Source: an uncultured Prevotellaceae bacterium
GTDB taxonomy: Bacteria; Bacteroidota; Bacteroidia; Bacteroidales; Bacteroidaceae
Assembly: GCA_947168555.1 (NCBI GenBank)
Contig: CAMVMJ010000006.1
Span: forward strand, 648 to 64,647
Length of the DNA stretch: 64,000 nt
Reading direction: 5' to 3'
Position numbers and translations under genes: made by a program. Positions within the stretch are counted from its first letter, which is position 1; the number at the start of each line of letters is the position of its first letter. The notes below the pieces were generated by a model. That model saw only the letters and a list, made by a program, of their open reading frames with translations. It was not told the DNA's origin and searched no databases. Positions 16,329-16,489 of this stretch are shown in pieces.

Positions 16329-16336
16329 CAAAAATA
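16329..16336 (-). promoter_or_regulatory. candidate -7 promoter box (TATTTTTG) for the caspase operon
   Basis: The reverse complement of caaaaata matches TAnnTTTG, about 94 nt upstream of the ATG at 16235. The twin region has an equivalent box at 22054-22061 with the same geometry. Confidence 0.5.
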
Positions 16337-16375
16337 AATAAAAATCAGGAAATATCGACTTTGACCACAAGAAAT

Positions 16376-16462
16376 GTTTAAAAAAATATAAAATTTTGTA
16401 TCGAATGTACCAAATTATCTCTTTCGTCTCATTTGTCTCACAAGCAATTTCACGAGACAACT
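16376..16462 (-). promoter_or_regulatory. conserved upstream element: A/T tract plus phased GTCTC x3 / inverted GAGAC array (copy A)
   Basis: Plus-strand aTCTC 16417, GTCTC 16426, GTCTC 16435 (9-nt phasing) and GAGAC 16454. The 45-nt core has 4 mismatches to 22151-22195. The flanks gtaccaaattat and aaaaaaatataaaa are also shared. Confidence 0.7.
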
Positions 16463-16489
16463 GCCCTGAAAGCCTCCGTCTGCACGGTG

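What the first reader, a model, noticed from the sequence alone, without database searches (positions are those of the whole stretch)
16329..16470. Duplicated upstream control module with a phased GTCTC array in front of both island operons (copy A)
The plus-strand sequence 16418-16462 (tctctttcgtctcatttgtctcacaagcaatttcacgagacaact) recurs at 22151-22195 with 4 mismatches in 45 nt. The flanking gtaYcaaattat and the A/T tract aaaaaaatataaaa are shared too.

The core holds pentamers at 9-nt phasing (aTCTC 16417, GTCTC 16426, GTCTC 16435) plus an inverted GAGAC 19 nt further on (16454). Copy B has the identical spacing.

In both copies a canonical TAnnTTTG box lies about 90 nt downstream in the direction of transcription (16329-16336 here, 22054-22061 in B), and about 93 nt upstream of the first ATG. 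The geometry is therefore conserved while the intervening UTRs are not.

This looks like a shared operator or upstream activating site for one DNA-binding regulator, or possibly an alternative-sigma promoter. No regulator gene lies in the island.
Basis: seen in the sequence. Interest (0 to 1): 0.65.

Follow-up and report, generated by a model that had tools for sequence, protein, structure and literature searches.

The report
Conserved GTCTC array heading island promoters
A 42-base DNA element (a palindrome plus two extra GAGAC repeats 9 bases apart) sits in front of both operons of a secreted-protein island in a rumen Prevotellaceae genome and recurs, almost unchanged, in front of other such operons in related bacteria, so it is most likely a docking site for an unidentified DNA-binding regulator.

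Summary
Copies A (16417-16458) and B (22150-22191) lie on the minus strand and share a 42-nt core: GTCTC-N14-GAGAC-N4-GAGAC-N4-GAGA(C/T). The core is part of a ~190-nt homologous module: array, A/T tract, TAnnTTTG -7 box and ~30 nt of leader. There are only two copies in the 64 kb.

Rumen metagenome contigs and the MAG RUG598 hold about 20 more copies. All are intergenic and nearly identical, with unrelated flanks in at least five contexts. They lie next to genes for LRR-caspase, TIR, kinase, FGE-sulfatase/PEGA, Sel1 and C10-peptidase proteins.

In six promoter contexts the -7 box lies 60-90 nt downstream. In two contexts an insertion pushes it to 172-186 nt. In one context the array is inverted, at 138 nt. 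A related strain has a third array before the island's last gene. Some copies have no promoter nearby, and synteny often breaks beside the array.

No regulator or recombinase is linked, and nothing matches in Rfam, phages or plasmids.

Best reading: a multi-site operator/UAS of a portable promoter module, bound by a protein encoded elsewhere (about 0.45). Rivals are a cassette-boundary or recombination site, a 3'-UTR RNA hairpin, a methylation switch, or a neutral repeat. Similar-looking arrays in distant phyla are generic: a control hexamer behaves the same.

The parts
16417..16458 (-). Array A core, 42 nt: GTCTCGTGAAATTGCTTGTGAGAC-AAAT-GAGAC-GAAA-GAGAT. It is a palindrome plus two further half-sites at 9-nt phasing; the distal one is degenerate (GAGAT).
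   Evidence: (D9); model R1 match 16415-16468, 63.4 bits
16433..16460 (.). Palindromic part of copy A (TTGTCTC...GAGACAA arms, 14-nt centre).
16459..16468 (-). 10-nt upstream extension (cagggcagtt, consensus AGGGTAGTT). It belongs to the element: contig L280, which lacks copy A, breaks exactly here.
16337..16416 (-). Spacer between array A and the -7 box. It holds gtaccaaattat and the A/T tract (16380-16393) and is homologous to copy B.
16329..16336 (-). -7 box TATTTTTG (Bacteroidetes TAnnTTTG type) of promoter A, 80 nt after the array.
16298..16328 (-). First ~30 nt after the -7 box (tgctGTCTTCATacaaaaagtagtgtaaaaa). It is homologous to copy B and to other cargo leaders and contains a GTCT(T)C-like site at about the start point.
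   Evidence: (D5)
5768..16235 (-). Operon A, all exported proteins: LRR_5+caspase C14 (14889-16235), two unknowns, a BACON-like protein, CHASE2, a transglutaminase-like protein, and two PEGA+Sel1 proteins.
22150..22191 (-). Array B core: GTCTCGCGAAATTGCTTGTGAGAC-GAAT-GAGAC-GAAC-GAGAC. It is identical to the consensus of all copies.
   Evidence: R1 match 22147-22202, 68.1 bits
22126..22133 (-). A second TAnnTTTG match (TACGTTTG) 16 nt after array B. It is present in class-1 copies and degenerate in copy A. If it is a promoter, the array would overlap its -33 region.
22054..22061 (-). -7 box TATATTTG of promoter B, 88 nt after the array.
22023..22053 (-). Conserved start of leader B (tggcGTCTTCATgccgaaagtggcttgaaaaa).
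   Evidence: (D5)
16490..21961 (-). Operon B, seven exported proteins. They include a WG-repeat protein (20600-21055) and DUF6175 (17892-18833). The operon ends 31 nt before array A.
22209..22352 (-). Small ORF (47 aa, C-terminal TM helix) ending 17 nt before array B. It is conserved together with the array in most 'class-1' copies.

Best explanation
The 42-nt GTCTC/GAGAC array is the most conserved part of a portable ~190-nt promoter module: array, A/T-rich spacer, Bacteroidetes-type -33/-7 promoter, and a short leader. This module heads the operons of a hypervariable island of exported proteins (LRR-caspase, CHASE2, transglutaminase-like, PEGA-Sel1, FGE-sulfatase, DUF6175, WG-repeat) in one lineage of rumen Prevotellaceae.

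I infer that the array is a multi-site binding platform for one sequence-specific DNA-binding protein encoded outside the island. A dimer would sit on the 10-12-bp-arm palindrome. Further subunits would sit on the two GAGACnAA units that follow at 9-bp phasing. The bound protein would co-regulate the island operons from about -90 to -135 relative to the start point. It may cooperate with the GTCT(T)C-like site at the start point; that looping idea is speculative.

Shown: the element, its conservation, its copy number, its position before promoters, and its gene associations.
Inferred: that a protein binds it, and whether regulation is positive or negative.
For: 1. Anatomy. A dyad plus phased direct repeats of the same pentamer is the usual shape of a cooperative protein-binding site.

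2. Conservation.
- About 20 further copies keep the whole core, although their flanks are unrelated in at least five contexts.
- The third GAGAC and columns T25, G26 and T28 are invariant, although the search pattern did not require them.
- In orthologous class-1 loci the array shows 0.94-0.98 pairwise identity, against 0.7-0.9 for the promoter and ~0.45 for the cargo.

3. Position.
- A TAnnTTTG box follows at 60-90 nt in six promoter contexts (WIN-A, WIN-B, L264, L265, L274, L277-3).
- In L268 the same promoter/leader as in L265 is served by an inverted array at 138 nt. That fits an orientation-independent, palindromic site.
- A related strain (L277) has three arrays, one before each of three transcription units of the island.

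4. Copy number. The element is low-copy and always intergenic.

5. Gene association. Copies lie consistently beside one functional class of genes: LRR_5 (5), caspase (5), WG repeat (4), TIR (3), plus kinase, FGE-sulfatase/PEGA, Sel1 and C10 peptidase.

6. Other taxa.
- Other Bacteroidales carry arrays of the same shape and pentamer upstream of variable operons, with variable repeat number (Aphodosoma).
- The homologous DUF6175 operon of RUG13218 has a different phased-repeat block at the same place.
Against: - No cognate regulator is identified. Neighbouring DNA-binding genes (HipB-like HTH_3, AbiE) vary between contexts.
- The distance to the -7 box is not fixed (60 to 186 nt). A 125-nt insertion carrying an intrinsic terminator is tolerated between array and promoter.
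- At least four contexts have no promoter within 400 nt. L267 lies between two convergent stop codons, 18 nt from each.
- The array always follows the stop of a co-oriented upstream ORF by 17-43 nt, and synteny often breaks at its edges. An operator model does not require either.
- Part of the apparent invariance is ascertainment, because copies were collected with a pattern that fixed GTCTC, AAA and TGAGAC.
- All copies come from one narrow lineage, so recent spread could mimic selection.
Confidence: 0.45

Rival explanations
1. Cassette-boundary or recombination site. The array (palindromic core plus accessory direct repeats, as in FRT or attI-type sites) is where gene cassettes of the island are exchanged, inserted or lost. 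The promoter association would be secondary.
For: - Synteny breaks lie at or within about 10 nt of the array. The window differs from L280 by 4 kb starting 10 nt upstream of array A. The window differs from L016/L263 by an indel directly after the array. L277's third array is lost in the window, and homology resumes 8 nt after it.
- The same DUF3987 element abuts the array in three different upstream contexts (L272, L281, L283).
- L268 holds a half-array broken in the palindrome centre.
- Arrays A and B are direct repeats flanking operon B.
- Bacteroidales rAID-1 clusters are a precedent for integron-like repeats (10.1101/471110).
Against: - No recombinase, integrase or transposase lies in the island, in the window flanks or among the frequent neighbour families.
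- In class-1 and A-type loci the cargo breakpoint lies just after the -7 box, about 100 nt from the array, not at it.
- The right-hand ends of the indels carry no array.
- There are no target duplications and no GTTRRRY-type core.
Confidence: 0.17
2. RNA element in the 3' UTR of the preceding gene: a hairpin followed by GAGAC repeats. It would act as a stabiliser, processing site, insulator or 3'-derived small RNA.
For: - The array is always co-oriented with an upstream ORF and lies 17-43 nt after its stop.
- In five contexts a canonical terminator hairpin follows within 8-20 nt (L016/L263, L278, L272, L281, L283).
- The imperfect palindrome positions are G·U-compatible on this strand only (16/18 and 10/18 G·U).
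- Predicted hairpins reach -17 to -18 kcal/mol in B and L281, with z = -4.2 for L281.
Against: - Covariation is no better than the shuffles (1 pair with double changes; 64-172 of 500 shuffles as good).
- Copy A folds no better than shuffled sequence (z = -0.46), and copy B only marginally (z = -1.7).
- The hairpin has no U-tract of its own.
- The two extra GAGAC units are unexplained.
- Array A arrived together with the downstream promoter cassette, not with the upstream gene.
- In L268 the array is inverted relative to the promoter it accompanies.
- There is no Rfam match.
Confidence: 0.13
3. Neutral or selfish repeat. A short sequence was recently copied along with promoter duplications in one lineage and has no function of its own.
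For: - The element is restricted to one narrow lineage. Only RUG598 among 185,579 species representatives carries this version.
- More distant homologues of the operon lack it (L285, L286).
- The island is highly mosaic.
Against: - The core stays at or above 90% identity where flanks are unrelated, and in orthologues that are only 84-88% identical overall.
- Substitutions between A and B avoid the three proximal pentamers.
- Copy number stays at 2-4 per contig rather than expanding.
Confidence: 0.12
4. Epigenetic switch. GTCTC is a type IIS recognition sequence (BsmAI/Alw26I class, from my own knowledge). A cluster of four sites could read out methylation by a GTCTC-specific methyltransferase and so couple island expression to methylation state.
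For: In Aphodosoma, arrays of the same pentamer lie upstream of restriction-modification operons with two methyltransferases or a C5 methyltransferase.
Against: - GTCTC/GAGAC is neither depleted nor enriched in the window or island.
- No methyltransferase lies in the window.
- The specificity of the Aphodosoma enzymes is unknown.
- The conserved AA after each GAGAC and the conserved palindrome centre go beyond a 5-bp site.
Confidence: 0.05
5. Replication-origin iterons, as in phage satellites and integrative elements.
For: In viral contigs, TGAGAC arrays in inverted sets flank AT-rich DNA next to DUF927/Toprim or PrimPol/DUF5906 primase-helicase genes.
Against: - A control hexamer (TGACAG) gives the same abundance and a similar share of inverted arrangements (22/119 vs 34/120). 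That resemblance is therefore generic.
- There is no rep, primase or helicase gene in the window.
- There is only one iteron set per copy.
- No copy of this element occurs in viral contigs, phages or plasmids.
Confidence: 0.02

Closest known systems
Cooperative multi-site operators built from short phased repeats (for example omega-repressor heptad arrays of pSM19035 or MetJ metbox arrays; recalled from my own knowledge, not tested here)
   Same: Several copies of one short recognition unit, in direct and inverted orientation, at sub-helical-turn phasing upstream of promoters. The number of units varies between related elements.
   Different: - The unit here is nGAGACnAA at 9-bp phasing, with a 14-bp centre between the inverted pair.
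- It sits about 100 nt upstream of the -7 box rather than over the promoter.
- No RHH or other regulator is linked.
- Binding is untested.
Bacteroidetes housekeeping-sigma promoters (-33 TTTG / -7 TAnnTTTG)
   Same: Both modules carry a perfect TAnnTTTG box 93-94 nt before the first ATG, preceded by an A/T-rich tract.
   Different: The array is not part of that promoter. It lies 60-186 nt upstream, and in one case it is inverted.
Integron attI/attC sites and the repetitive intergenic sequences of Bacteroidales rAID-1 clusters (Ross et al., bioRxiv 10.1101/471110)
   Same: A repeated intergenic element directly after stop codons in an array of variable, low-GC cargo genes. It has an inverted-pair-plus-direct-repeats layout like attI, and synteny breaks lie beside it.
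   Different: - No tyrosine recombinase is adjacent.
- There is no GTTRRRY core.
- The cargo units are multi-gene operons with their own promoters.
- Breakpoints are often at the start point rather than at the repeat.
- The rAID-1 motif sequence could not be compared, because figures are not held.
Iteron-flanked origins next to primase-helicase genes (SaPI/PICI-type; recalled from my own knowledge) and the TGAGAC arrays in IMG/VR contigs
   Same: The same pentamer and 9-nt phasing, with inverted sets of repeats.
   Different: The resemblance is generic, because a control hexamer behaves alike. There is no replication gene here, no second iteron set, and no copy in any viral or plasmid collection.
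GTCTCA/TGAGAC arrays of Aphodosoma and Duncaniella
   Same: Same pentamer. The same GTCTC-RYR-AAA...TGAGAC palindrome is followed by TGAGACNNN repeats. In Aphodosoma the arrays lie 150-250 nt upstream of variable cargo operons (RM systems).
   Different: - Repeat number is variable (2-14).
- Arrays come in pairs around an 80-nt AT-rich stretch (Aphodosoma) or lie between convergent housekeeping genes (Duncaniella).
- Only the pentamers and a few spacer bases match (R1 scores 15-25 bits against 54-71).

Membership tests
Bacteroidetes sigma-A type promoter | -7 box TAnnTTTG at a plausible distance from the gene | tested here: met
   TATTTTTG at 16329-16336 and TATATTTG at 22054-22061, 93-94 nt before the ATGs. 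The same box is present in the homologous modules of L264, L265, L274 and L277.
Bacteroidetes sigma-A type promoter | -33 TTTG element and a mapped transcription start | not testable with these tools
   Only TTG-containing candidates could be read. No transcript data are available.
Transcription-factor operator / upstream activating site | Dyad symmetry and/or phased repeats of a recognition unit | tested here: met
   10-12-bp arms plus two further units at 9-nt phasing.
Transcription-factor operator / upstream activating site | Recurrence before several co-regulated promoters, conserved more than its surroundings | tested here: met
   Six promoter contexts have the array 60-90 nt upstream. 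Array identity is 0.94-0.98 against 0.7-0.9 for the promoter. Caveat: the pattern-based collection fixes part of the core.
Transcription-factor operator / upstream activating site | Fixed position and helical phase relative to the promoter | tested here: inconclusive
   Distances are 60, 80, 88, 89, 90, 172 and 186 nt, plus 138 nt inverted. Four contexts have no promoter.
Transcription-factor operator / upstream activating site | A cognate DNA-binding protein that binds it | not testable with these tools
   There is none in the island and no recurrent DNA-binding neighbour.
Integron attC/attI or rAID-1-type cassette repeat | Adjacent tyrosine recombinase gene | tested here: not met
   No recombinase domain occurs in the window ORFs scanned or among the frequent neighbour families.
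Integron attC/attI or rAID-1-type cassette repeat | Conserved RYYYAAC...GTTRRRY core | tested here: not met
   Direct reading of the 58-nt consensus.
Integron attC/attI or rAID-1-type cassette repeat | Cassette boundaries coincide with the repeat | tested here: inconclusive
   Some do. Others lie after the -7 box or at sites without an array.
Intrinsic terminator | G+C-rich hairpin followed directly by a U-tract | tested here: not met
   The scan finds no terminator-like site at either array. Real terminators follow the array separately in L016, L278 and L272.
Any Rfam RNA family | Covariance-model match | tested here: not met
   No match with E <= 1 in 3500-24000.
Iteron-type replication origin | Adjacent initiator or primase-helicase gene, and two iteron sets around an AT-rich unwinding region | tested here: not met
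   There is no such gene in the window and only one set per copy. No copy occurs in viral, phage or plasmid collections.
REP/BIME- or MITE-like dispersed repeat | High copy number, spread over unrelated intergenic or intragenic sites, terminal repeats with target duplications | tested here: not met
   There are 2 copies in 64 kb, 2 strict-pattern hits in the RUG598 genome and 1-4 per long contig. None is intragenic, and no target duplications were found.

The most novel reading that the evidence does not exclude
The array is the junction element of a cassette-exchange system that shuffles promoter-plus-operon units of exported caspase/TIR/LRR proteins between loci in rumen Prevotellaceae. This would be a functional analogue of an integron whose recombinase is encoded elsewhere, or unrecognised. 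The element could also double as a regulator-binding site, so that every newly acquired cassette is automatically wired into one regulon.
Probability: 0.15. Interest if true: 0.75.

Novelty: new member of a known kind. Interest (0 to 1): 0.45.

Why it matters
If the array is a regulator's docking site, it defines a small regulon. That regulon would tie together scattered, rapidly reshuffled islands of exported caspase-like, TIR, LRR, kinase and peptidoglycan-associated proteins in an uncultured rumen lineage. It also supplies a precise 58-nt bait for finding the regulator and the signal that switches these poorly understood systems on.

If instead the array is a recombination boundary, it would be a new cassette system in Bacteroidales.

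Either way it is a compact, testable handle on islands whose function is unknown.

Tried and rejected
1. Exact 33-nt core in genome contigs: 0 hits, because even RUG598 differs by a base.

2. Rfam: nothing.

3. Cross-phylum meaning of TGAGAC arrays.
- I first took the many TGAGAC 9-nt arrays in Acidobacteria, Cyanobacteria, Planctomycetes and viral contigs as sign of a conserved binding protein. Some of these lie next to DUF927/PrimPol primase-helicases.
- A control hexamer gave equal numbers and similar inverted arrangements.
- I therefore dropped any cross-phylum claim.

4. Restriction-site avoidance: GTCTC is not depleted.

5. One genome scan was wasted on an off-by-one spacer.

6. A third, degenerate copy at the left end of the island: none, by mismatch scan and by model R1.

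7. Sigma-54 promoter between array and gene: the TGGC...TGC spacing is off by one in B and absent in A (direct reading). The sigma-54 activator at 56514-57830 sits beside lptE and is not linked.

8. Invertible-promoter (inverton) repeats around the promoters: none.

9. RNA covariation: not above controls.

10. Linked regulator or recombinase by neighbour clustering: none recurrent.

11. Conservation with the operon in more distant taxa: the array is absent from L285 and L286.

12. Literature searches for TGAGAC/GTCTC operators in Bacteroides: nothing relevant.

13. Annotated phages and plasmids: only chance fragments.

Full report
**1. What is in the window**

The region 4.1-22.3 kb is a low-GC island (0.40-0.53, against 0.51-0.61 in most of the flanking windows). 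It sits in a chromosome that is 94-99% identical to the uncultured rumen Prevotellaceae MAG RUG598. The right-hand flank and downstream genes are ordinary: SprT-like, aminotransferase, PBP1, pyrBI, glyA, hisS, a sigma-54 activator next to lptE.

All but one of the island genes (4227-5741, plus strand) are on the minus strand, and the minus-strand genes fall into two runs.
- Operon B (21961 to 16490) has seven genes, including a WG-repeat protein and DUF6175.
- Operon A (16235 to 5768) encodes LRR_5+caspase C14, three small proteins, CHASE2, a transglutaminase-like protein and two PEGA+Sel1 proteins.

Every product starts with a signal peptide or a TM segment, and none has a DNA-binding domain.

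**2. The observation**

The two copies are as described: 4 mismatches in 45 nt, the same pentamer spacing, and far beyond chance.

Read in the direction of transcription (minus strand), the core is GTCTC-N14-GAGAC-N4-GAGAC-N4-GAGA(C/T). The inverted pair is in fact a 10-12-bp-arm palindrome (TTGTCTCRCGAA-ATTG-TTCGTGAGACAA in its best versions).

Homology between A and B extends about 170-190 nt. It runs through an A/T tract and the TAnnTTTG box into the first ~30 nt of the leader. Copy B has a 9-nt insertion after the array. The -7 box is therefore 88 nt from the array in B and 80 nt in A. A mismatch scan and a sequence model find no third copy in the 64 kb.

**3. Relatives elsewhere**

A scan of one genome per species for the array skeleton returned 19 loci. 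The Bacteroidales hits were RUG598 (both copies), Aphodosoma, Duncaniella and two coding hits. The rest were scattered.

Many distant hits, and more than 120 viral contigs, carry long TGAGAC 9-nt arrays. These often occur as inverted sets around AT-rich DNA next to primase-helicase genes. That looked like a cross-phylum motif. However, a control hexamer of the same composition gave the same hit ceiling and a similar share of inverted arrangements (22/119 against 34/120). That architecture is generic and says nothing specific about this element.

The informative result was the metagenome scan. Of 22 loci, 20 are plainly homologous to the window core. All come from rumen-type samples.

The 58-nt consensus is AGTAGGGTAGTT-GTCTCGCGAAATTGCTTGTGAGAC-GAAT-GAGAC-GAAC-GAGAC-AAAA. 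The third GAGAC and several palindrome-centre positions are invariant, although the search pattern did not require them. Part of the remaining invariance is ascertainment.

Flanks fall into at least five unrelated classes. All copies are intergenic. Annotated phages, plasmids and viral contigs hold none.

**4. Where the copies sit**

- *Before promoters.* A TAnnTTTG box follows at 60 nt (third array of L277), 80 nt (window A) and 88-90 nt (window B, L264, L265, L274). In L263 and L016 it follows at 172 and 186 nt, because a 125-nt insertion with a bona fide terminator lies between array and promoter.
- *Inverted.* In L268 the promoter and leader found in L265 are served by an array in the opposite orientation, 138 nt away.
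- *After a stop codon.* Every copy lies 17-43 nt after the stop of a co-oriented upstream ORF. Most often that ORF is a conserved 47-aa TM peptide gene (window 22209-22352).
- *Without a promoter.* Some copies have none nearby. L267 is squeezed between the stops of a Vut_1 transporter gene and a convergent LRR-caspase gene. L262 lies 5 nt from a convergent Sel1-like gene. L272, L281 and L283 abut the terminator of a DUF3987 gene.
- *Neighbour genes.* They are strikingly of one kind: LRR_5, caspase, WG repeat, TIR, kinase, FGE-sulfatase/PEGA, Sel1 and C10 peptidase. HipBA, AbiE and AAA_14/DUF4143 modules lie on the other side.

**5. Mosaicism**

Comparison with related contigs shows that the island is reshuffled.
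- L280 lacks 4 kb: array A, promoter A and four genes. The left junction is exactly 10 nt upstream of the array.
- L277 lacks three genes of operon B, but has a third array before the FGE-sulfatase/PEGA gene. In the window, homology resumes 8 nt after the place where that array would be.
- L268 holds a partial array attached to a remnant of the small ORF, and a half-array broken in the palindrome centre.
- In the orthologous class-1 alignment, however, small ORF, array and promoter stay together and the cargo diverges only after the -7 box. The right ends of the indels carry no array.
- No recombinase is linked anywhere.

**6. RNA or DNA?**

Predicted hairpins are good in B (-17.2 kcal/mol, z = -1.7) and L281 (-18.4, z = -4.2), but ordinary in A (z = -0.5). 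The imperfect pairs are G·U-compatible on the sense strand. Covariation is no better than the shuffles. The two extra GAGAC units have no role in a hairpin. Neither array is terminator-like, and there is no Rfam match.

**7. More distant operons**

The DUF6175 operon of RUG13218 (75% protein identity, same gene order) has no GTCTC array. At the same place, right after the upstream stop codon and about 300 nt before its TATATTTG box, it has a 310-nt block of 11-nt tandem repeats in direct and inverted sets. A 44%-identical operon has nothing.

Aphodosoma carries GTCTCACAAAA...TGAGAC(NNNTGAGAC)n arrays in pairs around an AT-rich stretch, 150-250 nt upstream of different restriction-modification operons. 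Duncaniella has long arrays between convergent housekeeping genes.

Phased short-repeat arrays upstream of variable cargo operons thus recur in Bacteroidales, with lineage-specific sequence.

**8. Interpretation**

The array is the conserved head of a portable promoter module. Most likely it is a cooperative binding platform (palindrome plus two further half-sites) for a regulator encoded outside the island. Through it, the scattered islands of exported caspase, TIR and LRR proteins would form one regulon.

I put this at about 0.45, for three reasons: nothing shows binding, the geometry is loose, and promoter-less copies exist.

The main rival, at about 0.17, is that the array is a cassette boundary or recombination site. 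The remaining rivals are:
- an RNA element in the upstream gene's 3' UTR (about 0.13);
- a neutral lineage-specific repeat (about 0.12);
- a GTCTC-methylation switch (about 0.05);
- origin iterons (about 0.02).

An alternative-sigma promoter is not supported. The pentamers lie about 100 nt upstream of a canonical -7 box.

**9. Novelty and verdict**

The element is undescribed in the resources I could search (Rfam, literature, annotated phages and plasmids). In kind, though, it is a familiar object: a conserved upstream repeat array. It is real, specific and testable. Its interest is moderate. Interest would rise if the array proves to be the junction of a cassette-exchange system, or the handle that identifies the regulator of these enigmatic islands.

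Noticed in passing
window 22209-22352 (minus strand): Unannotated-looking 47-aa ORF (MNKTRQNPRVGNQNAKEKVVVHHLLGCLGTALFIVILIVALLIWVLS) with a C-terminal TM helix. It is conserved at 0.9-0.98 DNA identity in related contigs and always lies 17 nt before an array. 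In other contigs it sits next to HipBA or AbiE toxin-antitoxin genes. It could be a small membrane toxin-like peptide.
   Followed up: partly
L285 3137-3447 (RUG13218): A 310-nt block of 11-nt tandem repeats: CTAGGCATACT x9, GGAGGAGCCTA x5, then the inverted unit TCCTTTACTGC x11.5. It lies between the upstream stop codon and the promoter of the homologous DUF6175 operon. Its position is analogous to the GTCTC array, but the sequence is unrelated.
   Followed up: partly
L006 5380-5560, L008 6540-6710, L009 7500-7720 (Aphodosoma): Paired GTCTCA/TGAGAC arrays lie around an 80-nt AT-rich stretch, beside a Peptidase_S24 gene remnant. They are upstream of different restriction-modification operons (C5 MTase; D12 MTase + DUF6996/6997 + N4/N6 MTase). 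GTCTC is itself a type IIS recognition sequence, so these could be self-recognition sites of the RM systems.
   Followed up: partly
L023, L044, L047, L013, L033, L113 (viral and cyanobacterial contigs): Inverted sets of TGAGAC(C/A)NNN repeats around AT-rich DNA lie directly beside DUF927/Toprim or PrimPol/DUF5906 primase-helicase genes. They look like satellite- or phage-type replication origins.
   Followed up: partly
L010 2800-2900 and 4676-4825; L015 7460-7780 (Duncaniella): Arrays of up to 14 TGAGACNNN units with inverted heads lie between convergent housekeeping genes, next to terminator hairpins. Their function is unknown.
   Followed up: no
window 4021-4100, 9500-9579, 12380-12430; 3696-3986, 7650-7940, 9172-9462: The 5' ends (signal peptides) and PEGA regions of three island genes are paralogous at 67-84% DNA identity. 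These are likely substrates for the recombination that reshuffles the island.
   Followed up: no
window 5801-6709 and 8136-8656: 108-nt tandem periodicity inside the two PEGA-Sel1 genes (9 and 5 Sel1 repeats). This is ordinary repeat-protein structure.
   Followed up: no
L265 6370-6626, L268 8600-8980, L274/L279 downstream of the array: A long (~380 nt) conserved 5' leader (…gccgaaagtggtgtaaaaaccactggg…ggtgtttgtgggacacc…) lies between the promoter module and a C10-peptidase/LRR_5 gene. It may be a structured leader RNA. It is not present in the window.
   Followed up: no
window 16298-16328 and 22023-22053; L265, L268, L274: A GTCT(T)C-like site (GTCTTCAT in the window; exact GTCTC in L265 and L268; GTCTAC in L274) lies 4-6 nt after the -7 box, about at the start point. 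It could be an additional half-site for the same factor.
   Followed up: no
window 38737-44993: A cluster of secreted proteases (two M6 immune-inhibitor-A-like peptidases and a C10 peptidase with an Inhibitor_I69 prodomain) lies outside the island.
   Followed up: no
L016 ~4370-4480 and L263 467-600: A 125-nt insertion directly after array A in RUG598 and related contigs carries a canonical intrinsic terminator (gcgcctgcagtaatgcgggcgc + ttgttctttt). The window copy lacks it, so here operon B may read through into operon A.
   Followed up: partly
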